Origin: Dirinaria sp. TL-2023a
Lineage: Eukaryota
DNA: 36,446 nucleotides
Direction: 5' to 3'
Assembly: GCA_051941275.1 (NCBI GenBank)
Contig: JAVEBF010000061.1
Coordinates: 1 to 36,446 of the forward strand
Part shown: piece after piece, positions 887-17,451 of the stretch
How the letters are laid out: each line of letters opens with the position of its first letter
Position numbering within the stretch: position 1 is the stretch's first letter
Program-made: the position numbers and the translations under genes
Notes under the pieces: model-generated
Told to the model about the DNA's origin: nothing
The model's input: only the letters and a program-made list of their open reading frames with translations
Database searches by the model: none

Positions 887-2311
887 ATGAGCAATATCGA
901 TCAACAGCTTCGACATCAATGGGCCGATCCGGGCGATATTTTGTCACTCCTTCTATTAATCGGCGGAGACATTGTGCAAAAGGCGATCGCTCAACTTGTT
1001 GGTTGCGAAGTCCGTGTCCCCGGTTCAAGCACACGGCTTTCCATTACTCCTGTCGCATTCTCTTTCGGCTGGGTAGCCTACAGTTTCTCGAATATCCTCA
1101 CGGCCTTTGGGGAAATGAGGTTGATGCCATCAACCGATTGTCCTTCGCTGCTGGTGAATTGCTCTAACGGTTTCGTGAGAGAAAATCGTTCTTGGATACT
1201 GGGCCGACTTCTTCGCGATCACGAGCTCAAATGCGCCATCGATAGTCGTGGTAAGGATCAAGGGGGCAAAGGGGAGTCGATCAGGATTGATATCTTCAGT
1301 CTCGGCCCTGTATCTTTCCCTGATCGGGACTTCGTGTGGTGGCTTGGTTGGGTGGTCATTGCCATTCAAATCATGGTGTCCATTCTGCCCTGGATCTTAC
1401 ATGGTGTACGGGACATCATGACGATAACCATATGCGGCAATCTTCTCGCTGTTCTTACTGGTGCCATGCCGCAATGGGCACAGGAGAAGTGGCCCACTGC
1501 AAAGTTGGATCGCGACAAAATCACATGCCTCACTCGCGGAAATGGATATCAGCACATTATGGTCTTCATTGGATCTTCTGGCTCTTGGAATCTCGAGATT
1601 CTGGCGACAGGCGGGTCACATCCACGCCCAGAGACTCGGTGGATGTTATTGATACTTGCAGGGCTGTGGACCTGTCTCTTGGTCAGCGTAGCCGGGATCA
1701 AAAGCAACACCTGGTTTCTCATGGGGATTGGAGGCATCGGCATGTTGCAAAATCTATTGGCTGCAGCAAAACCGCGTAGCCCTGCGACTGCCAATGTTCA
1801 CACAACAAGATATTCTCGAGCCGCGATTATCATTGGACTACGGGATTCCCGCAACAACAGCCCAGGCGCCGAGGAAGACCCTGTAAAAGCGGAAGAGAGC
1901 CTCGCTGCGGTCGTTGCCTGGATTTCACGACCGAAGCAAGCAGCTGCGAGTACAGCCCACCCTCCTTCAATGCCCCAATGGCTCGCTTCCATGTCAAAAG
2001 AGGATGGCACTCCTGTATGGTTGCAACCCATCAAACCAGAGCGCGGTGCTCAGGTCACATACTCAGCTGGCGTGCACGGAGCCTTGATTGAACTGGAAAA
2101 ATGGATCCCAACAGCAGGACTTGCGATGGTCCAAGTATTCTTTCCCCACGGCCTTGTGTACAATGACCCGGCCATCCGAGACAATGTACACAAGCGATTC
2201 TGGAAGAAGGCCTATAGTACCCGGTCGGTTCGGAAAGAGGCGGAGAGGCAAAGGAGAAGCGAGGAACAGAAGCGAGGAACATCCTTGCACCGCGGGGCAT
2301 TTGCAGCCTGA
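887..2311 (+). CDS. Conserved fungal multi-pass membrane protein of unknown function (474 aa, single exon)
   Basis: Long intact ORF with several hydrophobic segments (ILSLLLLIGG, FVWWLGWVVIAIQIMVSILPWIL, IMTITICGNLLAVLTGAM, WMLLILAGLWTCLLVSVAGI, TWFLMGIGGIGML). The motifs GGDIVQKAIAQL and PVAFSFGWVAY match an uncharacterised fungal family as recalled from memory. Confidence 0.85.
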   Translation: MSNIDQQLRHQWADPGDILSLLLLIGGDIVQKAIAQLVGCEVRVPGSSTRLSITPVAFSFGWVAYSFSNILTAFGEMRLMPSTDCPSLLVNCSNGFVRENRSWILGRLLRDHELKCAIDSRGKDQGGKGESIRIDIFSLGPVSFPDRDFVWWLGWVVIAIQIMVSILPWILHGVRDIMTITICGNLLAVLTGAMPQWAQEKWPTAKLDRDKITCLTRGNGYQHIMVFIGSSGSWNLEILATGGSHPRPETRWMLLILAGLWTCLLVSVAGIKSNTWFLMGIGGIGMLQNLLAAAKPRSPATANVHTTRYSRAAIIIGLRDSRNNSPGAEEDPVKAEESLAAVVAWISRPKQAAASTAHPPSMPQWLASMSKEDGTPVWLQPIKPERGAQVTYSAGVHGALIELEKWIPTAGLAMVQVFFPHGLVYNDPAIRDNVHKRFWKKAYSTRSVRKEAERQRRSEEQKRGTSLHRGAFAA

Positions 2312-2328
2312 CTAACGGACGCCTTGAA

Positions 2329-2361
2329 GGGCAGTGAGTGGGCAGTGAGTTGGCAGTGAGG
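2329..2361. repeat. Short tandem repeat, 3 x 11 nt (GGGCAGTGAGT)
   Basis: gggcagtgagt gggcagtgagt tggcagtgagg, starting 17 nt after the stop of the membrane-protein gene. Confidence 0.8.
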
Positions 2362-2697
2362 GGTATCGTGTAACCACACCTGAAAGCCTCGATTATTTCA
2401 GCCGCTCGAGTGCAGAATAATCTTCTCCCTTCATTCACCAGAACAAGGTCTGTCAGTTCTCAATACGTTCGCTAGTGAGTTGGAGAATCCTTCGACTGTA
2501 AAGCACAGTATGCAAACTTGCCTCAATCTCGTGCCATTTCGATCATTTTGCTCAGTTGGCCGCTTTGGAGTGGCACTGTGGCAGTTGCAACGCTGTTCTG
2601 CCGGCTACATGTCTTAAACCCTTGGCAGTGCTCTAGCGCCCTACCGAACCCAATCGATATCGACCTGTCTATCTAAACTGGTGTCGCAGCATCGAGC

Positions 2698-5600
2698 ATG
2701 ACTGAGCAGAGCGGGCGGCATAGCCCAAGCAGGCAGATACATGATCTAGATGATAGTGAGTCCTGAATACCCTACTAGCACGGTTTTCATCAGTCCTTCA
2801 AGGCGTGAATTTCTTCGTTTTCTGCTGTGTCCACAGGCGTTTCATGGATTGACCTTCACTCTCACAGTTCGAAGCGACCTTTTCCGTCGTATCCTTGTCT
2901 GTCTCGCCGAAACCGACAATTTCAGTAAAGCAGCCACTCCAAGCTTCTTTGTAGTCTACGCCCATGATAATGCAAGCGAGGAAAACGTTCGTTTCCTGAT
3001 TGAATGGTTTGGCATCATTCGATCTCGAATGGTTTCTGACAAGCGCCCATTACCGGTTTTGGGGTCCAGAGCAGAAGATTCGGCCAGAAATATCTATTGG
3101 AATCAATCTTGTCTACTACCACACGAGGGTGCTCCATCGAGTGACGACGTAATCACCAGCGTTGATAAGGTTATCCTATGCGCTTCTGAGGTACTGAAGC
3201 GATATTTTGAGCATGAATTCACTCCACCGTACATCCATGGCATCGTGACGGAATTCAATAATAGAGAGTTATTCCAAAAGCCAAATCGCACATTGTTTGA
3301 GAGCCTCAAGGACTTCGTCGAGACGCATCTCCAAAACGACGGATTTCATCATGTTCTCACTGAGCTCGCTTTCCTGAATATTCGAATTTCCTACCTGAAG
3401 CCTCATGGGATCATTCCTCTGGTCCTTAACGGAGATCGCACTGACTACTCGTCGCTTTTTGAAGTGATCGGACTTCAAAAGAGTGATCTAATACTTGAAC
3501 TCAAAGCTCCTATACTGGTTGAGCTGCAGCGACTGTTCTTCAAGCTACTCAAACATGTATATACAGAGCATCATGTTCTCATTGATTTTTTTATGGATTG
3601 CTTCAATACTACAACTAGAAACTTGGCGAACCTCATGCATATGACGGAGTCGCAGCTTAGCAATAAAATCGACTCGGACATTGGCGTAGCACAAGCCAAG
3701 TGGATCAAATTTCAAAACGCACACAGTCGTCATATAGACACCCGCCCAGCAGTCGGAAAACTTGACGAACAATTGATGCAGGTGCTCGGAAAGCTCAGGA
3801 ACCATGATGACGTGCTAGGTTCCATTTATCAGATGGCCAAGGATCGTCAACTGGAATGTGTCCGGAAAAGGTGGAAATTTACCAATCCCAGCGGCAAACG
3901 GATTGTGCTACGTGATAAGATGGAAAACATGATCCGGTGGATCAATACGTATAGGGACTTAGGGCCAGTAGCTACCGAACACCATGCAGCGAGCGCCAGC
4001 TGGCCTTGGGCTGCCGTTCGATATATCCTCGAGACCACAGTGAACGATGACGAGTTGTTTAAAGCAGTGTCAGATAGTCTTGAGACAATTGCAAAAATAA
4101 TCACGAGGCACCGCATGGCCGAAGAGCTACTGATAAGAAGCTCCTGCTCAGATCACGAGACGCAGCTGCTTGAGTCCGCATTAGCTGGTCTGTATATCGA
4201 GATCCTAAGATTTTTAGCCATGGCCGTGGCGTACTTTAAAACCCCCAAATCAAGTAAGAGAACAAATTTCCCCAGGTGATTTGGATTTCGATAAATAACT
4301 ATGCATAGAACGCAGAATCAAAGACCCACTGGTAGCAATGAACGATTATGACCTTCCTAAAGTCTTGCAGAAAGACCACAAAGTCTCTCAACTAACTACA
4401 ATGATCGAAAGACACGCAAAACCACAGGATGAAGTGCCGATCAAAGAGCTACGGCAGCTCATGCAGAGTTCAGAAGCCTTCTTGACCCGCTTGAGCGTTC
4501 AGGAAGAAAAATCAACAAGGGTTATGGAAGCAACCAAGTATCGTGACTTGCTAGTCTGGCTCTCGAACGTCAATTACTCTTGCCACCATCAGTTCCATTC
4601 AGACAGTCGATTGGAAGGGACTGGAGAGTGGCTTTCGGAAAATGATAATTATATCGACTGGAGGTCGTCCAGTATTTCTGCTATCATGATTCTTCATGGA
4701 ATTGTCGGTAGTGGGAAGACGAAAATCGCATCGTGGGTCATTGATTCGTTCATCAACTCTTTGCACAGCAGGATCGAATCCAGCACTCAAGAGACAGCAC
4801 CTATAGCGTACTTCTATTGCAGCAACACTGAGTCCGAGCCTGAACGACGTGACCCTGCAAGTATACTGCGCAGCGTTGTACGCCAAATCACAGTGAATAC
4901 AACTACGACCCGAGTTGATGAATTTAAAGCCCACAGATCCGTTCTCCTAGAATTTGAAAAACGATCGCACCAGTCAAAGAAGAACGGGTTTAGTCCAGAC
5001 AGACTTAGTAACAAGGAGTGCATCAATATCATTGGTCTTGTTGCTGAGACTGAGCCTATTACAATAATCATTGATGCCTTGGATGAGGTTGAGGATGACG
5101 AGCCTCTGCATGAAATGATTCTAGGGCTTGACAATGTTGTCCGCAATGCTGCCAACGTAGTCAAGATCTTCCTTACGAGCCGAAATGGAGGGCCATTATT
5201 CTCGCTTCTTCCCCAGGCGACTAAAATTCGTATCAGCAAAACTGACAACGCAGCGGATATGATAGCTTTCACTCAATGGCAGATCGACAAAGCGGTCAGC
5301 GCGCGTCGGCTGCTCGGTGGCCATCTGGAAGAAGCGACGAAAGCTAAGATTATCGCCGTCCTCACTGCTGGGGCCGGAGAAATGTTTCTCTGGGTCAAGC
5401 TGCAACTTAACCGTATCTGCTGCAGAAAGACTGAGGTTGATGTGCAAGATGCGATCCGGCATCTACCCACAGCATTGGAAGACATATACAACGACGCACT
5501 CGAGCATATCGCCAGTACGGAGTATGGGAAAAGGGCATTTGAGATAGCCCGTTATGCTTTTTTATGGGTGCTCCACGCATGCAGACCACTTTCAATACCA

Positions 5601-8600
5601 GGTCTCCTTCAAGCAGTGTCAATGTCTTTTTCCCAAGAAAGGTTGGCAACGGATCTTACAGTTTTCGAGATCGAGGACTGTTGCCTCTACCTGATTTGTA
5701 TTGATCCCGCGTCCAACATGTTTAGGCCAATTCACCCATCAGTTCAGTTGTTTCTCGCCTCGCGACCAGACTTTGCTAATTTTGAAATCCAATCAATCAT
5801 GGCAAAGGCCACTATCAATAGCTGCTGTCAACTATCTCCAATCGAAGAGCGCCCTGAAGGTAGTCATATCTCAGCTGCCTCAAGCATCAGTTTTTCAACC
5901 TATGCCGTCATGTATTGGCCTTTCCATTGTCAACAAGCGAGCTTGCGGGAAAATACCTCTGAGTTGGGTTCACAAATGATCTCATTCGTCTTTGAAGGCC
6001 CCAGAGACCCCCAGATCAGTATCGAATTCAAGTTTTGGCTCGAAAACACAAAGCGATTAGTACAACGACTTTCTTGGGCCGATCCAATGTTCAAGCGACT
6101 TTGCTCGTTGACAAGCCCAGACAACGACTCGTTGTTCGCCGCGGCAGAATTTGGATTGGGGGACCTTCTCGAGCAGTTGGGCCAGGACCCGATCACAGGG
6201 CACGAGTGTGATCGTAGGAATGACTTGCAACAAACGCCACTGTACCTCGCATCAGTTTCAGGCCATACTAATCTTGCTCGAGTTCTTCTTCAGAAAGGCG
6301 CCAGTGTCGATTTGGCAGGAGGGAAACAAGGCTCACCGGCTCATGCTGCCGCTTTCTATGGCCACAAAGATGTCTGCTTACTTTTGCTTGAACGAGGCGC
6401 GAGCCCTCGACAAACGCCAGATGCTCGCCCTGAGGCTTTTGCTAATGTTGTCGAGGCAGCACTCGCCGGTGGTCATGAAGAGCTTGGAAGAGAAATCTTA
6501 ATCAAAATCGCGCCTACATTGGAAGAGGAGGATCTGAAAACAATCATGAATGAGGCTTGCAGAAGGGGTTATAATCATATTGCTCGCTGGCTGCAGTCGC
6601 AAGTTCCCACACTGGCTCTGTCACCGTTAGTAGAAACGGCTTTGACGAAAGCAGTATGCCATGGGCAAGTTGAGACCATCAAATTCCTTCTCAAAGAAGC
6701 ACACGGAAAATTCGATGTCCTACCTCTCGACACTATTACACTTGCAGCGCTTCATGGGCATGAAAATGTCATTATATATTGTCTCGAACGGGGCTTAGAT
6801 ATCAACCGATTGGGACCATTCGGCTCGCCACTTCGAGTGGCCAGCAGGATGGGACACGACCATATTGTTCGGCTGCTCTTAGACAACGGGGCCAAAGTGG
6901 GTTGTGATCAGCCTCTGCAAGCCGCAGCTTTCTGGGGTCACGTTGAAGTCGTCAAGACTCTTCTTTACATTGGCGGCTTAAGCGCTGACGAAGGCGGAGA
7001 CGAATACGAGCCTCCTCTGACAGTTGCGGCATATAGAGGGCATGTGGACGTTGTCAAAGTTCTTCTAGACGCTGGCGCAGATCCCCGCAAATCGCTGGAC
7101 CCGAAATTCAGGTACGCCAACGCATTTCACGCTGCTGTCGAGGGCGGAAATAATAGCATCGTCGACCTGTTCAATGAGAAAGGGTTCACGCTAGAATATC
7201 GCGTTGAAGCACAGTATGGTCACCGAGCACGGAGTCACGATCTGGACGCTTCAACTTTCCGGAAGCTGAACCTCACGGATATTATGCCCGAGCAGTTAGA
7301 AGCAGAAGGCTCCTTAACCCCAGTGAGACCTACCGGCACCATTCACCAAGCTCCCGTTCAGGAAAAGGGTCCAAACGCCGTAAGTTTGAGACTCTACATG
7401 GACCAAGTGCACAGGATACTTGATAATTTGAGGTTGACAGGAGACGGACATGCTCAGATAATCGGCTTCTTTGCTAGTGCGGTCGAATGCGGAAATTTAA
7501 AGGTTGTCCGGGTGGTAGGCCCTGAAATACAAGAGCAATTGATGTCCCTAAATATTAACAATAGCCAAGACGCATCTAAATGGAAACGCATGGCCCGGGC
7601 TCTTGGTGGTTACCAAGATTGGGAGCCACTGACTGCGGCTGCTTCATATGGTCATCTAGGTTTTGCAGAGTATATTCTGTCGTTGAGAGACAGTGATGCA
7701 TTGATTTCAATGGCTGAGATAGAGAGTTTGCTTTCGGTCCGCTCGAGCACCAATCTCCAAGTTCTTTCTAAAGCTTTGACATATTTAGAAAATCTCTGCG
7801 AGGGGGACGTCGATAAGCACTTGGAAGCTGTGAAGCTCTTGCAATACACAATGCAGACCGCAGCTGGTTTTAGCAGAAAAAGTGGGGTGTTATCCGTTGG
7901 CACTGATAATCCCGAATTGCTAGCTATGTTGCTCGGAAGCCAAGGTGTGACGATACCGACTTCCTCGCCTGAGTCGATCTATCAAGCTTGGGCTATGGGT
8001 CGCGAACATGCTCAAGCGCTGTCTGTTTTATATACCAAGTCGCCCGACAAAGCAGCTCACCTAGCGCAGTGTTTGGTCAAGACTGTGGAACGTGGTCATT
8101 TCCAAAACTTCTTACTTATGATGTGTTGTAGTCCTCCGGACACTGAGAAGGGATTCCTTATTGCCTGTCGTTATGGCCACACCGCTATTGTTGAGTATCT
8201 CATCTTGAAAAGCATGCCAAGTTGGCAAGACCGCTCCAGAACCATGGCCAAAGGTTTGATTCTGGCGTCTCAAAGCGGCCACTCAAACATTGTTAACCTC
8301 GTTCTCACTGGAGGCGCTGACGTCAATTGCGAATTGGAGTATGAAGTAGCGGAAAGAGGTCCCCTTATTGCTACCGATGGATTTGACGAAGCTTTCTACT
8401 GGCAATACAGATATCTCCCGCAAGAACAGAAACCCAATATCTATCAGCGCGCTGATCCCAAGGATACCGATGCGGTTAGGGACTCAGCTGGCGTTGTAAG
8501 TCCTTTAGGCGCTTGTCTTGTAGGCCTTGCTCGCTTTAGCTTAGACCATAATACTTTCAACCACGAAATGGTCAAACAGACTTTGACCCACGAGATCGAC

Positions 8601-11600
8601 GGACCGAGGCGCCTAGCATTCCAGACTAATCATGGCTTTGAACCTTGGCGAAGTCGAGGGTGTGACCAAGAAAAGTGCACAGAAGGTGCAGCTTCGGAAA
8701 ATTTACAAAGAGAAACATTGGGATTACTTCTCGACAAAGGGGCACGAGTCGATCTGCTGTCCAGTAGTTATCTGTCAGACCACCCTTTATTGCTGGCAAT
8801 TAAGTACTGCGGGCCCAAAGTGATAAAACATATCGCGGAGCGTATGAATGCTATCAAGCCAAGCGTTCCTTACGACGAATTGACTGCTTCGATCTTGTGT
8901 CGGCGGTTCAAAAACTTGGAAGCAGCCGAAGAAGTTTCTCAATGCATATCACGACTACGGGCAGAATCTTTGGGAAAACAGAGCGTTTTTCAAATGTTGC
9001 CGAATCTTAATTTGAGATCGTGTGTGCGAGAGCTGATGAGGCAATCCTGCGCGCTGATGATGACACTCCTCTACATCTCTCAATCCATCAAACTTAGACG
9101 CCTTGACCATACCACTGTCAGATCCCATGAAGAGATGCTGTCAGAAGTTCGGTATGAGGCTATGGATCCTTTTTGTGCCCCAGTAGATGGACTGGGAGCT
9201 TTAGTGAGGGAGATCTTGTCAAATCACCAAGAGAGTTTGGATCTAGACGACCAAGGGTTCTTATTTCTACTTGCCGGCATTAGTGGCCGCTCAGCATGGG
9301 TCTCTTGGCTTTCCCGCTATCCAGAACGCTCTCACGATCTCGAACTTTTTTGGCGAAACTACAACCCCACGGAGATCAATCACAGTCCGCCTCCATATCT
9401 TCTAGATTCCCGCATCATTAGTAATCCAGACTTCCAAGAGGGCCGCCCCAATATATCTCCATTAGAGGCGGCGTGTTTCAATGGGCACCTTGAGTTCGTG
9501 GTGGAGCTTTTGCCTGTCTTGCATCACATCTATCCGACCACTGAAACCTGCATCGCACGGCTGGAGAGCGCCCTGTACGCCGCCATTGTAACGGAACACA
9601 GCGAGGTTGCTGCTGCGCTCATACAGAGTGCTTCGCAACTACAGTTTTCGATACAAAGGCTTGACCCAACCATATTTACCCTTGCAGCTAAAGTCCAGTT
9701 GCCCCGGATAGTTGAGCTTCTAATCGAGGCTGGTGTCTATGTAAACTCTGTTGGCCGACCATGCGATGGGTGTGATGAGGCGCCTGCACTTTATTACGCC
9801 TGCACAACGGCGGATCCTAAGATTCCTCAAATGTTGCTTGCCGCTGGCGCTGATGCCACATGGGTGATGCCTCAGGGACCGGATGAGAATGCTCCAGTAT
9901 CAGTATATGATTTTGCTCGGACTCCCTACCGAGGGTTGTCGCGCTTACTGCCCGATATTGTCTTCCATGGGAAAGTGTCCTATAGGATGTCGTGGTCAAC
10001 AGACTTTAGTCACACAAACAGATCGGGCCCTCTCCACATTTCATGCGCATACGGCAATGTTTCTGCATCTCGTGCACTTATTGAGCGTGGTGCAAATCCA
10101 CGGATGGAAAGCACTATTGGAACACCGCTCATTTGTGCCGTTCAGGGAAACAGCTTGGCATGCGTCCGGCTACTGCTCGAGACAATAGACGGCGACGATG
10201 AGGAAGATTTAGGTAAGAGCCTTGACAAAGCCGTTGAAATGGGTGCCTCCGACATAATCGCAGAGCTTTTGTCATGGGGAGCCCCCGTTTTTGGCTGCGC
10301 CGGCAGAAATACACGCAATGCACTTGTTCATGCAGTTGAGTATAGAGATATAGTTTCCTCAGAAAAGGAGATCCGCGAGAGAGTATCAATTACGAAAGCG
10401 TTACTGACTGCGCTAGAGAATATGGAAGATCTGGAAGCTTTGGTTGAAAGCTATGCCGCAACATCGGCTCCCCAACGCGACCCCGTGCAAGTTGCGGCAC
10501 TTAGGGCTATGGAGTTTGGGGACAAAGAGTGTTTTGAGCTCCTAGCCAATTTCCTTCCTGCAGAAATCTCGTACTTCACCGATACCATGCAGCTGCACGC
10601 AGCGTGTTGCGTGGGCTCTTTATCTACAGTTGAGCGGTTAGTTCGTCAAGATATCGATGTGGATGTCCCGGACAGCTACGGCGACCGTCCTCTGCATATT
10701 GCCGCTCATCACCTGCACTACGATATTTTGCAATTCCTCCTCGCAAATGGCGCAGATGTCACGTATAGTAGCAAAAACTTAGGATCCCCCTTGATGACTG
10801 CTATGGAAGGCTGTCTTGCAGAGATGAACCGTTCAATATTTGGCCGCTTACGTGATAGAATCATGGAAGCTGAACTATTGGAACCAGGTCTTCCACCAAA
10901 GACATACTTTGGTCCTGCCAAACTTCATGGTGAAATGGAGAGATACCCTACAATTCACCTGGAGGGTGAGAGAACCGGCAACTGGACAAAAGATGAGATT
11001 GGTAGAATCACCTTCTATATGAAAAGACAGGGGCATACACCGACTTTTCTTCTCCGCACTTTGCAGGTACTTTTCAAGCACGGAGTAGAGGCAAATCCAA
11101 AACCCGGCTACTTTGGCACAGCTCTACAGATAGCTTGTTTCATTAGAAGCGAGACCATCGTAAGACTCCTCCTGGACCAGGGAGCGGATGTCAATGGAAC
11201 CGGCGGCTGGCTTGGGTCGCCGCTTATGGCTGCTATACACGCCGGAAACACAGGCAAGTCGCACAGAATCATCAAGCTACTTCTAGAGAAAGGTGCCGAT
11301 GTTTCATTTCGAACCGAAAGAGGGTGTTCGGTCCTGAATCGCGCCTGTGAACTGACCACTCTGACCAGTATTCGCTTACTTCTCGAGCACGGCGCGGATG
11401 TGAATGAGGGACAAGGAGCGCTCCTGGAGAGAAGATTCGCGTTCGGGCACCCAGGTGTCGCGTGGGCCTTGCTTCGCTACGGCAAGGGACTACGCCTTAA
11501 AAAGGTACATTTGGAAATTGCGAATATCTCACCATGGGGCTATCGAACCTACTTGGGCAAGACGGCTGCTGAGTGGCTCTTAGACTATCGGTACCGCCAT

Positions 11601-11723
11601 CCTGAATTGTGCTGGTCAGACGAAGATCCCAGGCAACTTGAGGAAGCTCTCGATTTTCAAAACTCGTATAAGGATGCCATACAAAAAATTATTAAGTCTT
11701 CGGATTATTGGAAATCGCATTAA
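2698..11723 (+). CDS. Fungal NLR: TIR-like + NACHT_N/Goodbye-type helical region + NACHT NTPase + ankyrin repeats (~2952 aa; exons 2698-2755, 2868-4253, 4309-11723)
   Basis: Introns 2756-2867 (GTGAGT..CAG) and 4254-4308 (GTAAGA..TAG) are both phase 1 and join the ATG at 2698, ORF 2750-4279 and ORF 4338-11723 in frame. Walker A GIVGSGKT (4698-4721), YFYC, Walker B IIIDALDE (5064-5087), IFLTSR, EMFLWV and LPTALEDIY mark the NACHT. Many ankyrin units follow (TPLYLASVSGH, SPLRVASRMGH, PLTVAAYRGH, PLHIAAHHLH, TALQIAC). The upstream helical region carries KRWK..IVLRD..WPWAAVRYIL. Confidence 0.92.
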
Positions 11724-12313
11724 CTATTGAAAATCTATCTGGAGACATGATCAGGTATTTATATAAAGATTGGATAGTCATAAAGACAACTATAATGAAA
11801 GAAATCAAAGAAATTCATCCAGCATACATGATATGAAACAACATGGTAAACATCGGGATCTAGGCACTTCGCCTTTGCCTTGCAAGACCCTAAGGTGAAA
11901 TAAGTGGTTCATCTCTGCATCAAGATGAGAACACGCGATCTAAGGTACTTTATGATTCATCATGATAGGCGGCGCAGGACGAGTTCCTAGCCTGAGCATG
12001 ATCTGCTGGACTCTTATTCTTGCTATCTAGCTTGTTGTTAGAAACAAGTGAAGTTGATTTATAGAACGATATCGGTGCAATAAGAAGACGTCTGTAGCAC
12101 AAGTAGGATAGCCAAATCTTCAATTAGTAAACAAAAGTTTTACTCAGCGTCTCTCCAAACGCACTTGAAACTTATTAAACTTTGATCGTGAGAGATATCA
12201 CTTCTGTGAGAAGAGAGAGTCAAAGAATGGGCAAGTCTAGAAATCTGTACTCCAATTGTAACCCCTTCATCTTCAGACTTGCCGTTTCCGAAATTGATCA
12301 GCTTCCAATCCTC

Positions 12314-13988
12314 TCAGTACACGGGAACTCCTCCACCGTCGGATTCATCCTCGGAATTATCGACAGCTGAAGCGAGACTCGACTCCGGGGGCTCGCAACT
12401 CGATCGCTCCACATCTCCGCCAGACGTCAATTTAGTTTTCTCCAGAAGAAATAAGTCTTCATCTTCTTGAGGCGGAGTGCATATCGCGCGATGCAGATCT
12501 ACTAAAATGTATAATAAGCTATGAAGACCACTAGTTGATACCTCAACTTACGGCCACATGTGTCGGTCGGGAACGGTGCTTTTATATCATCAGCATATAC
12601 TGAAGTGTCCAGGCCCGTAGTCGAGTCAGGATGCGCCCTAAACCCTCGATAGTCTGGTTTAATCTTGTCCAGAACGAACAGACGGATTCCCTGGATCATA
12701 TCGTTTAAGATCTTCTCTTGCTCTTTTACCAATGCCGGCAGATCCTGCTGGATATATGGCGGTTGCCATTGAATATATAAGTTTTCGCTGCAGCCCGACG
12801 TTTGCACCTGCAATGGGTGGGCCTGAAAGTATCGATAGCACAAGAAACAAGCCGGTTTGCTCACGCCAATGTATCGAACCCCGTCCCAGAACGGCAAATT
12901 CTGGCGGTGGAATAGGTCGAGAAGGATTATTTCCGCATGAGTTCTCAGCTTAAATTTCGGGTCCTGGTACTCGTCTCGAATGCGTTTTTCTAGCTGCAGA
13001 TGGAACTTTTCTTCCTGGGATTGCAGCTCTTTCTGGTAGTATTCGCAGACCTGGGGTTCTTTCACCATTCGGTTGATGATACCGTTGATTGACGACTTTC
13101 CCCTATAAGTCGGCGGTGTAAAGTTCAGACGAATTGTCGCGATTTCAATCGAGTATCCCGTAAACAACTGCGGGCAGTGCTTTCCAGCCTCCACTAAAAT
13201 CCACGCAGCTTTCAGGTATGACCCTAGACGGCCGATGTAATGTCGAACACGTGCAAATCGGGCTTCATAAGAAGTGTTCTCTTCGTGTATGCTGCTATTA
13301 TTGGCTCTCTGTTCGACTGCTTTTAAAAACATTGATTTTCTAGCTTCATAGCATAGTCGGCAAAAGTCCAGGATGTTCACGTCTGACTCTGCGATGGATA
13401 AGAGCCAATCTTTCAGATTGTTGGCTTCTGTAATGGAGACAAGTGTTTAATCAGTCAATTGGTGACTTATGGACAAAACTCAGCCTTGTAAAGCAACTAC
13501 GAACCTTCTTCGTTCTGCGTCTCCAATTTTGGGAGGCACGTTTTGATCGCACATTTGACCTTGAATCTATAACGTCGCAGTTTCTCGTCGGCGAACTTCA
13601 TCGCGCTGTCGGAGATTTCGCGTCGCAAAACAGAGACATGCTCATCGCTTGCGTTATAGACTTGACCAAGTCGCTCTAAGATGCTCAAGAGAAATGGCTT
13701 CATTAGCTTGACTTTAGATCCTTTGTGAGTATTCGCGGCCACCCAATAGGTCAAACGAGGACCGTCCTGTATTGCAACCGCGGCCACAGTATCTCCACTA
13801 GGCGAGTAATCGCATATATAGGCAAGCTCGTCAAGGAATCTCTTGCTCAATCTCTTGTCGTTTTCAGACCATGCCTCGTCGGACTTAACATGTCTTCCCT
13901 GAGATTTACCATAAGCCAGTAGGAGTATCAAAGGCTCATAGAATCGATCCCAAAGCTTCTTGTTAACTTGTGGCGGATAAGTGTTCAT
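12314..13988 (-). CDS. OTT_1508-like nucleic acid/nucleotide deaminase-family protein (~515 aa; exons 13988-13505, 13427-12552, 12501-12314)
   Basis: Zn-deaminase motifs RTHAE (HAE at ~12939-12931) and YIGVSKPACFLC; N-terminal RFYEPLILL and FLDELAYICD..GDTVAAVA. Introns 13504-13428 (GTTCGT..CAG) and 12551-12502 (GTAAGT..TAG) keep frame and give an acidic C-terminus ending SEDESDGGGVPVY*. The start codon could lie further upstream. Confidence 0.85.
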
Positions 13989-15646
13989 TTGGGCAATAGC
14001 TAGAGGTTGAATAGTTGGGATGCTCGTTGGAAGCAGAAAAGTTGGCTCCGTGAAAGACTGTACGATATTATGGAGTGTCCAATAACAGACCAAAGCCTAA
14101 GAAGTATTCAAAGCAATATAAAGCGATATGAACACCGAAGATGATTAATTTCGGGTTTGAATATGTCACCGTCGTCGATTTCGACAGCCTTCTAAGAAGA
14201 AAGCGGGGAAGAGATATCTTTTTCCAATCACGCAAAGAAGGTCTTAGTCATAATGACTTACCGAGTATTATGTACCTAGGTAATGTTCTGAATACTGGCC
14301 ATCCAGCGCCCTCGCTTCGTGGTGTGACAACATGATTCGGATAGCGAGCCTATTGGTCGTGTCTTTCTTGGCTTCCTCGATATACTTCTGTTTAAAAGAA
14401 CCCAAAACTCACCTAGCAATGAAATCATTTCGGTATTATTGGTTGTTAAAATGGTAAAGCTGGGGACTGTAAGTAGAAAGATAGTAGTGGGAAAAAGAAT
14501 ACGATTGAGGCCCTCGGTCAAGCTTGCTGTGCGAATAATTCTCTCCATCTCGATCCCCACTTGACACCCTCCACCTCCATTAATATTTTCTAATAGCCAA
14601 GTCCACGAGGACAAGATAAACGGAATCTTTCTCCAGTCAGGATGTAATCTTGATAATTGCCAAGCTACTGGTCTGACGAGAGTCAAGCTCGATCCGGTAC
14701 TATCATAGCTTACATTTTCCGACTCCGCAACTTCGATCCAGATCATGAAGATGTAAGTGGTGAAAGTCGGGTGGAAGAGACAGCAGCGCTAGCGCAATGG
14801 TTTCTTAAGTGTTTAATATAGCTTCTAGAATCAATTAGTTGATCAAGCGAGTCTAGCGTTGAGCAGAAATGCTTCCCTAAATACCTGGTCTAATTCCTGT
14901 TCGATGAAAGCTGCAACTCTCAATGAACGTACCTACTACCTGGGTCTATGCCAGCGTAAAAAATGTGAATGTCGCTATCACTTCTCTGCTTTAACACCAA
15001 GTCCCTAATTCTGAATAGAGCTGAGCGGTGGCATTGAAAATGCACGTTCCGGCGTTCATCAATTGATTATGTGGAGCCCGAGCAAGTTTCCTCAACGGAG
15101 TTCGCTCGAGAATCAAAGAGTCGCGTCTCTGCGAATGCAACCATACTATATTTTATCGCGTTTCAGAAGCCGGAATTTGAGAGTGTTCCAAGGCAGATCA
15201 CGAATCAATGACATCGACCCAGGATCTCATCACTTTTTCCTCCCCACTCCTGCTCATGAGTTGTGAAATATTAGCAAATAAATGACTCTCAGTTTCGATC
15301 GCCGAAGAGAGCATGACGGGACTTTGGACGCTGGACGAGGGTATCGAACAATATCTTTGGACAGAGTTATGATCCCTCAACTCGAGTTTCTTGACGTATC
15401 TCGGCGGATACGCGTCATATCCGTCGTAGACGACATACAATCCGATGAGCAGTTACTGCGAATACCATCGTCATTGACGTTACACAAGAGTAGAGTCGTA
15501 GTCAGAATATTCGTAAGGGCGTCGATATCGTTATGCAATCACTTCAGCAATTAAGCTTCGATTTCTCAACTCCATCCTAGTGTCAGCTGCAATGTCAATG
15601 ATGGAGGTATCTATGAGACTCTCGGTCGAGCTATTGAAGATCTCGC

Positions 15647-16961
15647 TCATTGCTCCTCTACAGCCTGTAAGCTCTTCACCGTATCCACAATCGTCTCCCT
15701 CAGCGACCTATATGTCAAGCCCAGTACGCTCTTTGACCTCGCGTTATCAAAACCATACGTACCCTTCTCCGGGTACCCTCCGGGCTTCAGCGCCTCTCCA
15801 CTGGGTAAGTTCTCCTTCAGCTCTGGAAACGCATCTCCTATGATTTCCGCGATTTCTTTGTTGCAGAAGTGCCCGCTCACAACGAAAAACCGTTTCCCTC
15901 CCGCCTCGTCCTTCTCGGCGGCGAGCACATGTGCTAACGCAAGGTCGCGCACGTCGACGAAGAGGTAGTTTCCTGTCGGCGGGCAGGAGGCTTTGGCGGC
16001 GCCGGTCATGAGATCGCGGGTTCGTTGGTTGGAAGTGTTGAGTGCTGAGAGGGAGTTGAGATAGTGGACGATTGGACCAAGGACTAGTGGCGGATTGCAC
16101 TGTATTGGGAGTCAGCTGCATAGCAGCAGTTGACAGGCAAAATTCGAGAACAGGAACTTACTACTGCGAGAGTGAAATTGGGACTCTCTTGTGCAACAAA
16201 ATCCCAGGCTGCGCGTTCCTGTATCATCATTATCATCTGTACGCCTTCAGTCTTTCTTACCACTTACTGCAAAAGTCTTACTGGCACGGTAGCCGTTAGC
16301 TGGCCCCTCGTAAGCTTCGGCTTCAGTTATTGGGTTCCAGTCCGCCTGTGATTTCCGGTCAGGGTTTTGGAATGAAAAAGCCAGAATGGTGAAGTGCGGG
16401 TTACCTCCGAATATATCTTTCCAACGCTTTGAGCTTGATCCAACATGGCAGCAGTCGATGAGGTGATGACGACTCGTTTGACACTGGGCGCATTGTTCTT
16501 GATTGCTTTCAGTATACCCGTAGTGCCAATGATAGCTAGATAATGTACGATCAGATAAGGCTCGAATCAAGATTTTCCAATTCAGCGCTACAATACCTGG
16601 GTCAAGCATTTCCTTCTTGACGTCAGTAGCATTGAAGTGGTACGGACTCGCCGTATGGATCACGGCTCCAAATGGTGGATCAGAAATGACAGCTTGGTCA
16701 AATGCTATATATACAGGTCAGCGATAGGTTTGCGATACGTTCTACGCTATGAGGTCTCAACGTACCATCTGGTTGAGCGATATCTTCGACAATAGCGAAA
16801 TCAAGCCTATCTTTGCCGAATCTCGGATGCGCCGCTTTGATCGCTTGGGCCTTCTGCAAGGATCTTACAGTGGTAACAACGGAATGTCCTCGTTCAAGCA
16901 GGATGTCCAAAACATTGGCAGCAATGAAACCGCTCCCGCCTGTCAACAGAAATCGTGTCAT
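15647..16961 (-). CDS. NAD(P)H-dependent ketoreductase / GRE2-like extended SDR (epimerase family), 340 aa, 6 exons
   Basis: TGGSGFIA Rossmann motif, VIHTASP, VVITSS, catalytic YRASK, NPPLVLGP, FVDVRDLALAH. Introns 16765-16705, 16596-16536, 16404-16346, 16267-16219 and 16161-16100 are all GT-AG and frame-preserving. Confidence 0.92.
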
Positions 16962-17451
16962 ATTGAGGGATTATATGATGAAGACACAGACGATAGAATG
17001 AGAACAATCTTTTTGCTGTGGAGTCCGGATGTACTCGTACAGACTGGGGCCGACGTCGCTGAATCACAGATTTCCTGAGATTCATTCTTTCACTAGATGA
17101 TGGAGCCTTTATAGATAAGTAAATTACATAAACATCTGACATCTTGGTGGATCAACATTGACACTGATAATGTGAGCATGAATAATCAAGGAGCAAATCG
17201 AGATAGCGACTATTGACCCACCAATGAAAAGGAGCGAAGCGATCCAGGCGAATCGGGAGCGGCCCGTCACTGCCGACCGCAGTCTAGAGAATCTTCGCGG
17301 AGATACTGCCATGAAGGCGCGATACCTCTAAAAGAGCCGGAAATACACATCAATAACGGGAGGGGCCTTGTAGATACCGTATTGATACAATTAATGAAAA
17401 TTTCTTAGGTGTAGATGACGTTGTTTCAGTCCTACGGCGCCTTCTAGGACT

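What the first reader, a model, noticed from the sequence alone, without database searches (positions are those of the whole stretch)
887..13988. Candidate three-gene fungal immune module: membrane protein + TIR-like NLR + convergent OTT_1508 deaminase
Seen in the sequence: three intact genes sit close together. The membrane protein stop is under 400 nt from the NLR start on the same strand, and the deaminase ends ~590 nt from the NLR stop, tail-to-tail. Established: fungal NLRs often lie next to the effector they activate (e.g. nwd2 with het-S); in bacterial Thoeris systems TIR-made nucleotide signals activate separate effectors, including transmembrane ones; OTT_1508-clade deaminases have no defined fungal function. 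Inference: this could be a sensor (ANK) -> signal/NADase (TIR) -> membrane or deaminase effector system. No amyloid signalling motif is evident, which would fit small-molecule rather than prion-type coupling. Adjacency in one genome is the only linkage evidence.
Basis: partly seen in the sequence, partly recalled or inferred. Interest (0 to 1): 0.8.

Follow-up and report, generated by a model that had tools for sequence, protein, structure and literature searches.

The report
Conserved membrane protein plus TIR-like NLR
A fungal immune-receptor gene carrying a TIR-like signalling domain sits beside a membrane-protein gene in many unrelated fungi, which suggests the two work together, whereas the neighbouring deaminase gene looks like a bystander.

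Summary
The three genes exist as described. They are a 474-aa multi-pass membrane protein (887-2311, +), a 2,952-aa NLR (2698-11723, +) and a convergent 515-aa OTT_1508 deaminase (13988-12314, -). The gaps are 386 nt and 590 nt. RNA contigs confirm two NLR introns.

The NLR N-terminal domain has a TIR/SEFIR fold (Z 12.7). It fits the "TIR-like effector" cluster of Pezizomycotina NLRs described in 2022.

The new result is that membrane protein and TIR-like NLR are recurrent neighbours:
- Four NCBI genomes have adjacent locus tags.
- Two further pairs share small contigs, and two metagenome organisms show the pair.
- One merged gene model points the same way.
- The pairs span three classes, with NACHT or NB-ARC, and ANK, TPR, WD40 or HEAT repeats, in varying orientation.

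Paralogous clades of the membrane family lie beside HET-domain genes, which the literature treats as TIR-related. Of 18 de-duplicated metagenome loci with 2.5 kb or more of flank on both sides, 12 have a HET or TIR-like gene within 2.5 kb.

No deaminase occurs in any of the 79 related loci, and its homologues come from other genomes.

Verdict: a conserved two-gene module, with the deaminase not supported as a member. The mechanism is inferred. I found no published description of the pairing.

The parts
887..2311 (+). Single-exon gene for a 474-aa multi-pass membrane protein of a Pezizomycotina family with no Pfam model. It is the proposed partner of the NLR.
   Evidence: ORF and translation. 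No Pfam hit at E 0.1. 605 homologues with E <= 0.001 among 7,999 scored candidates, named ones all Ascomycota. TM-like segments. AF2 model with pLDDT 68.8 and no fold match, best Z 6.3. RNA contigs cover 1019-2307.
2698..11723 (+). NLR gene of 2,952 aa. Exons are 2698-2755, 2868-4253 and 4309-11723.
   Evidence: Spliced CDS has one terminal stop. Joints 2755>2868 and 4253>4309, both GT..AG, in RNA contigs. Pfam domains.
2930..3574 (+). TIR/SEFIR-fold N-terminal domain (residues 7-221 of the query window:2912-3904). A helical extension follows, to about 3904.
   Evidence: AF2 model with pLDDT 84. VIA-align hits: ACT1 SEFIR Z 12.7, IL-1RAcPb TIR 11.6, prokaryotic SEFIR 11.6, SARM1 TIR 11.5. The first 23 rows are all TIR or SEFIR entries. 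Family of 252 representative clusters at E <= 0.001.
3938..4253 (+). DUF7708 (PF24809) linker domain before the NOD module.
   Evidence: Pfam E 2.7e-9, 37.4 bits against cut-off 25.
4617..5219 (+). NACHT-type NTPase (NPHP3_N, with a weak NACHT hit).
   Evidence: PF24883 E 2.4e-28. PF05729 E 0.0034, below its cut-off.
6132..11510 (+). Long ankyrin-repeat region, the presumed sensor (ends approximate).
   Evidence: Ank_2 E 7.4e-95 with 10 stretches, plus the Ank, Ank_3, Ank_4 and Ank_5 models.
7380..7440 (+). Optional 61-nt intron inside the ANK region. Splicing shifts the frame and gives a stop at residue 1511.
   Evidence: Joint 7379>7441 (GT..AG) in X3 record 21. The stretch is retained in X2 record 12. 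Frame consequence computed.
12314..13988 (-). OTT_1508-type deaminase gene of 515 aa. Exons are 13988-13505, 13427-12552 and 12501-12314. It is a neighbour and not part of the conserved pair.
   Evidence: Spliced CDS. The C-terminal exon agrees with homologues. PF14441 at 67.3 bits. RNA contigs lie on 13505-13548 and 13637-13959 only.
12757..12939 (-). Deaminase catalytic core, with the HAE and PCxxC motifs present.
   Evidence: PF14441 matches residues 132-192 of P0004. The motifs are visible in the translation. Their role as zinc and catalytic motifs is recalled knowledge of the deaminase superfamily.

Best explanation
The locus holds a conserved two-gene fungal immune module and an unrelated neighbour.

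Shown: the NLR has the architecture TIR/SEFIR-fold domain, DUF7708, NACHT, ANK repeats. It is the recurrent genomic partner of a Pezizomycotina-specific multi-pass membrane protein. The pairing follows the N-terminal TIR-like domain. It does not follow the NOD type, the repeat type or the gene orientation. Other clades of the same membrane family sit next to HET-domain genes. The literature regards HET domains as TIR-related cell-death domains.

Inferred mechanism: a ligand binds the ANK repeats and the NACHT module oligomerises. The clustered TIR-like domains become active. They then act on the membrane partner, either through a small nucleotide product or by direct contact. The partner changes membrane permeability and brings about regulated cell death.

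The convergent OTT_1508 deaminase is an intact gene, with RNA-library contigs on part of its first exon only, but it is not a member of the module.
For: Adjacent NCBI locus tags in 4 genomes, from the lists:
- VE03_03419 / VE03_03418 (Pseudogymnoascus, NACHT-ANK)
- Q9227_002723 / Q9227_002722 (Pyrenula, NACHT-ANK)
- LTR96_011448 / LTR96_011449 (Exophiala xenobiotica, NACHT-HEAT)
- ANO14919_040370 / ANO14919_040380 (Xylariales sp., NACHT-WD40)

Of the 10 assemblies or species that appear in both lists, 4 are adjacent, 4 more have both genes on one contig and 2 have them on different contigs. Among the 4 same-contig cases, Hypoxylon FL1150 (186 kb) and Nemania serpens (165 kb, NB-ARC-TPR) also have nearby JGI ids.

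Unnamed pairs share contig lengths of 8,014 bp (P0060/P0281) and 34,970 bp (P0040/P0230).

In the metagenome loci, a profile of the TIR-like domain hits 5 of 79 loci, which represent 2 organisms. The hit is always 626-837 bp upstream and divergent. The gene is NB-ARC+TPR in L001 and NPHP3_N in L006.

P0177 is a gene model that merges the membrane C-terminal half with a TIR-like domain, which implies a tandem pair elsewhere.

In the tree, all TIR-like-adjacent membrane proteins, including the window's, fall in one clade of 23 rows (SH-aLRT 99). HET-adjacent ones fall in other clades.

For HET: 33 ORFs were confirmed by Pfam (15 of 50 submitted, 18 of 27). Of 18 de-duplicated groups with at least 2.5 kb on both sides, 12 have a HET or TIR-like ORF within 2.5 kb. 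Density is 19 ORFs in 175.9 kb near the gene, against 7 in 266.6 kb farther away. The binomial p is 6e-4, and the chance of 10 or more of 16 loci at the local background rate is 3e-6.

The RNA contigs with spliced joints are.
Against: - Nothing shows which way signalling runs, or that there is any enzymatic activity.
- No TIR, SEFIR or HET sequence model matches the domain. Pfam TIR_2 hit 1 of 37 family members at E 0.022, and a PDB sequence search gave nothing relevant.
- A profile-profile comparison of the TIR-like family with the neighbouring HET proteins found no similarity (probability 0.2). The TIR-HET link therefore rests on the literature (PMC9815663, passages).
- The pairing is not universal. 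Two assemblies have the genes on different contigs. Six of the 18 well-flanked groups have no HET or TIR-like neighbour. Seven close homologues with 1.4-3.7 kb of upstream flank show no divergent partner within it: L009, L010, L011, L023, L025, L073 and L079. An eighth, L078, has 10 kb of upstream flank and none within 5 kb. L025 and L079 carry a HET gene there instead. L078 has a HET ORF 5.3 kb upstream. L009 has a HET-like ORF seen only by my local profile.
- The named lists are truncated. Only 120 of 605 membrane hits were listed, and the NLR search covered only proteins of 694-2000 aa.
- The membrane model is of medium confidence (pLDDT 68.8) and has no fold match.
Confidence: 0.5

Rival explanations
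1. The pair is real, but the membrane protein is not the executioner. It could be the guarded target, a negative regulator or antidote of the TIR-like/HET domain, or the polymorphic partner of an allorecognition (het) locus. That would resemble the linked membrane-protein and HET-domain genes het-c/pin-c of Neurospora (recalled, not checked here).
For: The linkage evidence is the same as for the best explanation, and linkage alone does not give direction. HET-domain genes are typical het-locus components (PMC12881547, passages). The variable orientation fits selection for co-inheritance more than for co-transcription.
Against: The membrane protein is strongly conserved, at 48-58% identity across classes with 56 positions at least 90% conserved family-wide. 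That is unlike a hypervariable recognition partner. It has no Pfam Het-C domain.
Confidence: 0.27
2. The membrane protein is an upstream receptor or anchor. It recruits the TIR-like or HET protein to a membrane, as IL-17 receptors recruit ACT1 through SEFIR domains.
For: The best structural match of the N-terminal domain is the ACT1 SEFIR domain in a receptor complex (Z 12.7).
Against: No TIR- or SEFIR-like domain is evident in the membrane protein. The NLR already has its own large ANK sensor.
Confidence: 0.08
3. One reading: a three-gene system in which the deaminase is a second effector of the TIR-like NLR.
For: In this window the deaminase is intact and lies 590 nt from the NLR stop, tail to tail. 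Contigs from an RNA library lie on part of its first exon.
Against: No deaminase homologue lies in any of 79 related loci. Its 36 homologues come from other species (Geoglossum, Arthrobotrys, Drechslerella, Vezdaea) and from contigs that are not shared with the pair.
Confidence: 0.05
4. All the adjacencies are chance or plain inherited synteny, with no functional coupling.
For: Adjacency in this one window proves nothing. HET and NLR genes are numerous in Pezizomycotina and tend to cluster.
Against: The pair recurs in three classes, with different NOD and repeat modules and different orientations. The other flanking genes differ between loci: aminotransferase and GatF in L001, and FNIP, MFS and a Tle1-like gene in L006. 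HET and TIR-like ORFs are about 4 times denser within 2.5 kb than at 2.5-10 kb in the same loci.
Confidence: 0.05

Closest known systems
TIR-like (SEFIR-resembling) N-terminal effector domains of Pezizomycotina NLRs (Wojciechowski et al. 2022, PMC9815663; section 17 read in full)
   Same: The domain is an N-terminal NLR domain of about 390 aa. It has no Pfam annotation and an AlphaFold model of the TIR/SEFIR type. Homologues occur in Mycoavidus. All of this matches what I see.
   Different: The main text of that paper does not contain the word 'transmembrane' (0 occurrences), and section 17 names no partner gene. I did not open its supplementary tables, so identity with their cluster is inferred from the description.
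Fungal two-gene NLR/effector clusters: nwd2/het-S (amyloid signalling) and protease-NLR/gasdermin (PMC12881547 and PMC10197012, passages)
   Same: An NLR-type sensor gene is genomically clustered with a gene for a membrane-acting protein. The N-terminal domain of the NLR defines the pairing.
   Different: No shared amyloid motif is present, and there is no protease or gasdermin domain. The partner here is an integral multi-pass membrane protein of unknown fold.
Bacterial Thoeris (TIR protein ThsB plus effector ThsA) and other TIR-signal systems (recalled)
   Same: A TIR-fold protein is encoded next to a separate effector candidate. ThsB structures align with the domain at Z 7.6-8.2.
   Different: No PADLOC model matches either protein. 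The sensor here is an NLR. NAD-derived signalling is untested.
HET-domain proteins (PF06985), the cell-death domain of fungal incompatibility genes
   Same: HET genes occupy the same position next to paralogues of the membrane protein. The literature regards HET as a distant TIR relative (PMC9815663 and PMC10197012, passages).
   Different: The window's domain does not match PF06985, and hhalign found no similarity to the neighbouring HET proteins.
OTT_1508-like deaminases (PF14441)
   Same: The Pfam match is clear and the HAE and PCxxC motifs are present.
   Different: Nothing links it to the NLR pair beyond adjacency in this window.

Membership tests
Fungal NLR (STAND NTPase with an N-terminal effector domain and C-terminal repeats) | A central NACHT or NB-ARC NTPase domain | tested here: met
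   NPHP3_N E 2.4e-28, above its cut-off. The NACHT model itself scores E 0.0034, below its cut-off.
Fungal NLR (STAND NTPase with an N-terminal effector domain and C-terminal repeats) | C-terminal superstructure-forming repeats (ANK, TPR or WD40) | tested here: met
   Ank_2 E 7.4e-95 with 10 stretches.
TIR/SEFIR (STIR) superfamily | Flavodoxin-like TIR fold | tested here: met
   Z 12.7 (rmsd 3.3, 149 aligned) to ACT1 SEFIR. Z 11.5-11.6 to IL-1RAcPb TIR, a prokaryotic SEFIR and SARM1 TIR. The first 23 rows are all TIR or SEFIR entries. The best Foldseek E was only 0.09.
TIR/SEFIR (STIR) superfamily | A match to a curated sequence model (Pfam TIR, TIR_2, SEFIR or HET) | tested here: not met
   The window's protein has no such hit at E 0.1. 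TIR_2 hit 1 of 37 family members at E 0.022. The PDB profile search found no TIR.
TIR/SEFIR (STIR) superfamily | The catalytic glutamate of NADase-type TIR domains, and NAD+ cleavage | not testable with these tools
   The family has invariant residues D43, Q65, S92, H146, H147, T150 and E151. No residue-level superposition on a catalytic TIR was available.
Thoeris-type defence system | Homology of the components to ThsB and ThsA | tested here: not met
   No PADLOC model matches the TIR-like domain or the membrane protein at E 0.1. Only fold-level likeness to ThsB was seen, Z 7.6-8.2.
Amyloid-signalling NLR/effector pair (nwd2/het-S type) | A short motif shared by the NLR N-terminus and the partner | tested here: not met
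   BLASTP of P0001 against P0002 gave a best E of 3.9. The NLR N-terminus is a folded domain of about 330 aa.
OTT_1508 deaminase (PF14441) | Pfam model above the gathering score, plus the zinc-binding motifs | tested here: met
   67.3 bits against a cut-off of 27. The HAE and PCxxC motifs are in the translation. The meaning of these motifs is recalled.
Conserved membrane-protein / TIR-superfamily gene pair (proposed here) | Recurrent adjacency in independent genomes, beyond chance | tested here: met
   4 adjacent locus-tag pairs, 2 shared small contigs, 2 metagenome organisms and 1 merged gene model. Including HET partners, 12 of 18 well-flanked groups are positive, with p-values.

The most novel reading that the evidence does not exclude
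This membrane-protein family is the missing downstream partner of TIR-superfamily death domains in filamentous fungi, covering both the SEFIR-like NLR N-termini and the classical HET domains. Under this reading it is the executioner, or the receptor of a TIR/HET-made signal. HET-mediated heterokaryon incompatibility and TIR-like NLR signalling would then converge on one conserved multi-pass membrane protein. That would be a eukaryotic counterpart of bacterial systems that pair a TIR with a membrane effector.
Probability: 0.3. Interest if true: 0.9.

Novelty: new variant of a known kind. Interest (0 to 1): 0.74.

Why it matters
How HET and TIR-like domains kill fungal cells is still open. Passages of the 2023 and 2025 reviews (PMC10197012, PMC12881547) list the biochemical activity of HET as not determined.

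A conserved, genomically linked membrane protein gives a concrete candidate to knock out, co-express or purify. It would add a third type of two-gene fungal immune cluster beside amyloid/HeLo and protease/gasdermin.

It also gives a simple rule for annotation: a member of this membrane family flags a functional TIR-like or HET partner next door.

Tried and rejected
I therefore could not count paralogues in the genome or collect more locus tags.
- Complex prediction on the TIR-like domain plus the membrane protein gave a score of 0.00 and the verdict 'no answer' (after the queue was full). This is evidence neither way.
- Foldseek against the PDB with the TIR-like model gave no match at E <= 0.001. 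The wide VIA search settled the fold.
- The membrane model had no fold match, best Z 6.3. The protein atlas showed only unnamed Ascomycota clusters. For the TIR-like domain the atlas gave bacterial TIR_2/SEFIR clusters at 0.79-0.82, which counts as a lead only.
- hhalign of the TIR-like family against the neighbouring HET proteins found no similarity. The PDB sequence search returned only chance CD9 hits. PADLOC returned nothing.
- I looked for signs of a mobile element around the deaminase. There are no direct or inverted repeats in 11500-17000 and no second copy in the window.
- Tandem-repeat search found no long DNA-level ANK repeat arrays, only two short arrays in the intergenic region 2255-2360.
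- RNA contigs left 2308-2715 and 10823-13504 without any listed piece (table 8; eight further pieces were not shown). This is not evidence of silence.
- Nine ORFs hit by my local HET profile were not confirmed by Pfam. They were kept apart as 'local-only' and not counted as HET.
- Literature searches found no paper that describes a membrane-protein partner of TIR-like NLRs or HET genes. Subscription journals and the supplements of PMC9815663 were not examined.


Full report
**Observation.** The window is fungal. Besides the three genes it holds a P450, an FAD-binding oxidase, an NmrA-like gene and a fungal rhodopsin-domain gene.

The three genes of the finding are real and intact.
- The membrane protein is one exon, 887-2311, 474 aa. 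Hydropathy gives TM-like segments at 16-40, 148-195 (two) and 250-294 (two).
- The two large plus-strand ORFs (2750-4279 and 4338-11723) belong to one NLR gene. Reading the junctions suggested introns at 2756-2867 and 4254-4308. Both appear as GT..AG joints in RNA contigs of a lichen-metagenome RNA study (one study, four runs of one sample, 95-99% alike). The spliced CDS gives 2,952 aa.
- The deaminase has three exons and 515 aa.

**The NLR.** Pfam finds DUF7708, NPHP3_N/NACHT and a very long ANK region. It finds nothing for the first ~390 residues.

A HMMER search of 1.84 billion representatives with residues 55-385 of the first ORF found 252 clusters at E <= 0.001. The match is nearly always at the N-terminus of the hit protein, and hit lengths range from about 250 to 2,669 aa.

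An AlphaFold model built on 37 family members (pLDDT 84) aligns with TIR and SEFIR domains:
- ACT1 SEFIR, Z 12.7
- IL-1RAcPb TIR, Z 11.6
- a prokaryotic SEFIR, Z 11.6
- SARM1 TIR, Z 11.5

The first 23 rows are all TIR or SEFIR entries. Foldseek alone gave only E 0.09.

Sequence models do not recognise the domain. 'TIR-like' is therefore a statement about fold. Family-invariant residues include an FHHVLTE-type motif. Whether any of them is the catalytic glutamate could not be tested.

This domain fits the 'TIR-like effectors present in Pezizomycotina' of Wojciechowski et al. 2022 (PMC9815663, section 17 read in full). That section describes unannotated NLR N-termini with a median of 389 aa, resembling SEFIR, with homologues in Mycoavidus. 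I also found the core of the domain in NACHT/NB-ARC-WD40/HEAT proteins named Mycoavidus and Glomeribacter.

**The membrane protein.** It has no Pfam family, no PADLOC match and no fold match (best Z 6.3 on a medium-confidence model).

It belongs to a well-conserved family. There are 605 hits at E <= 0.001 among the scored candidates. The 120 listed are 48-87% identical to it, and all the named ones are Ascomycota. Across 66 diverse members, 56 positions are at least 90% conserved, among them FSFGW, several arginines and a T-x-G-N-G loop.

**Linkage of membrane protein and TIR-like NLR.** A scan of JGI metagenome contigs with the family alignment returned 79 loci.

A profile of the TIR-like domain hits 5 of the 79 (L001-3 and L005-6, which represent two organisms). 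Each hit lies 626-837 bp upstream of the membrane gene on the opposite strand. In L001 the gene continues as NB-ARC + TPR, and in L006 as NPHP3_N. The other flanking genes differ between the two organisms.

I then searched the 5.8-billion-protein set with the domain alignment, restricted to longer proteins (only 694-2000 aa were searched). I compared names and contig lengths with the membrane list.
- Four genomes have consecutive locus tags: Pseudogymnoascus VE03_03419/03418, Pyrenula Q9227_002723/002722, Exophiala xenobiotica LTR96_011448/011449 and Xylariales sp. ANO14919_040370/040380.
- Of the 10 assemblies or species present in both lists, 4 are adjacent and 4 more share a contig. These four are Hypoxylon FL1150, Nemania serpens, Xylariales AK1849 and Cadophora; the first two also have close JGI ids.
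- The remaining 2 are on different contigs (Paramyrothecium foliicola and Parahypoxylon ruwenzoriense).
- Two unnamed pairs share contigs of 8,014 bp and 34,970 bp.
- P0177 is a gene model that runs from the membrane protein's C-terminal half straight into a TIR-like domain. This implies a tandem pair like the window's.
- L004 has an ANK-encoding ORF convergent on its membrane gene.

The partner NLRs carry NACHT or NB-ARC, with ANK, HEAT, WD40 or TPR repeats. The hosts span Leotiomycetes, Eurotiomycetes and Sordariomycetes (Xylariales; this placement is recalled). What is conserved is therefore the combination of membrane protein and TIR-like domain. The rest of the receptor varies, and so does the orientation.

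**Limits of that evidence.** Only 120 of 605 membrane hits were listed. NLRs longer than 2,000 aa, the window's own size class, were not searched. Locus-tag adjacency is taken as physical adjacency.

Seven close homologues with 1.4-3.7 kb of upstream flank lack a divergent TIR-like gene within it (L009, L010, L011, L023, L025, L073, L079). An eighth, L078, has 10 kb of upstream flank and none within 5 kb. Their downstream sides are missing.

**The wider family and HET.** Pfam scans of the neighbours of more distant family members showed HET domains (PF06985) again and again. HET hits came from 15 of 50 ORFs. Among further ORFs picked by a local profile, 18 of 27 were HET. The nine unconfirmed ORFs were kept apart.

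I merged loci whose membrane genes are at least 90% identical, which gave 52 groups. The counts of groups with a Pfam-HET or TIR-like ORF within 2.5 kb are as follows:

| Flank available | Groups | Positive |
|---|---|---|
| At least 2.5 kb on both sides | 18 | 12 (2 TIR-like, 10 HET) |
| At least 2.5 kb on one side only | 14 | 5 |
| Short on both sides | 20 | 1 |

In the representative loci there are 19 such ORFs in 175.9 kb within 2.5 kb of the gene. There is 1 in 106.7 kb at 2.5-5 kb and there are 6 in 159.9 kb at 5-10 kb. The binomial p is 6e-4. At the local background rate, 10 or more of 16 loci has p about 3e-6.

A quick maximum-likelihood tree was built (66 rows; five groups with under 700 nt of ORF overlap were left out; the careful search did not finish). 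It puts every TIR-like-adjacent protein, including the window's, in one clade of 23 rows (SH-aLRT 99). The HET-adjacent ones fall in several other clades.

The literature treats HET as a distant TIR relative with a conserved glutamate (PMC9815663 and PMC10197012, passages).

**The deaminase.** It is a clear OTT_1508 member with the HAE and PCxxC motifs, and it is intact. Contigs from an RNA library lie on part of exon 1 only, and no joint shows that they come from spliced RNA.

No homologue occurs in any of the 79 loci (and at E <= 1). Its 36 retrievable homologues are 32-83% identical. The four named ones are from Geoglossum umbratile, Arthrobotrys, Drechslerella and Vezdaea. They share no named species and no contig length with the membrane or NLR lists. 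No repeats flank it. I conclude it is a neighbour and not a member of the module.

**Mechanism.**
- Shown: the gene pair, the fold, the architecture, and spliced RNA of the NLR.
- Inferred: ANK-mediated sensing, NACHT oligomerisation and proximity activation of the TIR-like domain, which then acts on the membrane partner. This follows the logic of the known fungal two-gene clusters, nwd2/het-S and protease-NLR/gasdermin (PMC12881547 and PMC10197012, passages), and of bacterial TIR systems (recalled).
- Not excluded: the membrane protein could instead be a guarded target, an inhibitor or a recruiting receptor.
- A complex prediction gave no verdict.

**Novelty.** The TIR-like NLR domain is published. 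I found no description of the membrane partner or of its HET-linked paralogues. This rests on five full-text searches and on passages of three papers. Subscription journals and supplements were not seen.

Noticed in passing
window 7380-7440: There is an optional 61-nt GT..AG intron inside the ANK region of the NLR. It is spliced in one RNA contig and retained in another. Splicing shifts the frame and would give a 1,511-aa isoform with the TIR-like domain, the NACHT and only the first ANK block.
   Followed up: partly
window 10404-10795: A 53-nt RNA contig, seen in two runs of one sample, joins 10404 to 10795. This is a 390-nt in-frame skip with TG..GA ends and 7 ambiguous letters. It may be an ANK repeat-number variant in the related strain or an assembly artefact.
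   Followed up: no
window 12314-13988 and proteins P0375-P0410: The deaminase has many close homologues (70-83% identity) on short metagenome contigs, in 90% clusters of up to 24 members. Named relatives reach 62-76% identity in Geoglossum, Arthrobotrys and Drechslerella, which is higher than the cross-class identity of the membrane protein. The extreme C-terminus ends in a GGVP[VL][YF] motif, which the Arthrobotrys and Drechslerella proteins also carry.
   Followed up: partly
proteins P0310, P0311, P0337, P0349, P0350, P0354, P0358, P0363: The core of the TIR-like domain (query residues ~8-175) also occurs, at about residues 120-390, in NACHT/NB-ARC proteins with WD40 or HEAT repeats of Mycoavidus and Glomeribacter. 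These are bacterial endosymbionts of fungi. This agrees with the horizontal-transfer idea in PMC9815663.
   Followed up: no
L038 6817-16426: One membrane-family gene (10001-10918) is surrounded by three HET-domain genes. They lie 854 bp upstream, 389 bp downstream and 3.8 kb downstream.
   Followed up: partly
L039 1690-3891: A membrane-family ORF carries a WD40 beta-propeller stretch (E 8.5e-76) within the same open frame. It may be a fusion or an unrecognised intron.
   Followed up: no
L074 14468-17836: An Abhydrolase_6-NB-ARC-TPR NLR lies 3.5 kb downstream of a membrane-family gene that has no HET or TIR-like neighbour.
   Followed up: no
L006 11490-13283: A Tle1-like phospholipase-domain gene (PF09994, E 5.8e-38) lies convergent, directly downstream of the membrane gene of the L005/L006 organism.
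   Followed up: no
protein P0031 (VE03_03419): The Pseudogymnoascus membrane-protein gene model ends in ankyrin repeats in place of the family's C-terminal tail. It has probably been merged with part of the adjacent ANK-NLR gene.
   Followed up: no
window 2255-2360: Two short tandem arrays (13-nt and 11-nt units) lie at the 3' end of the membrane gene and just after it, in the spacer before the NLR.
   Followed up: no
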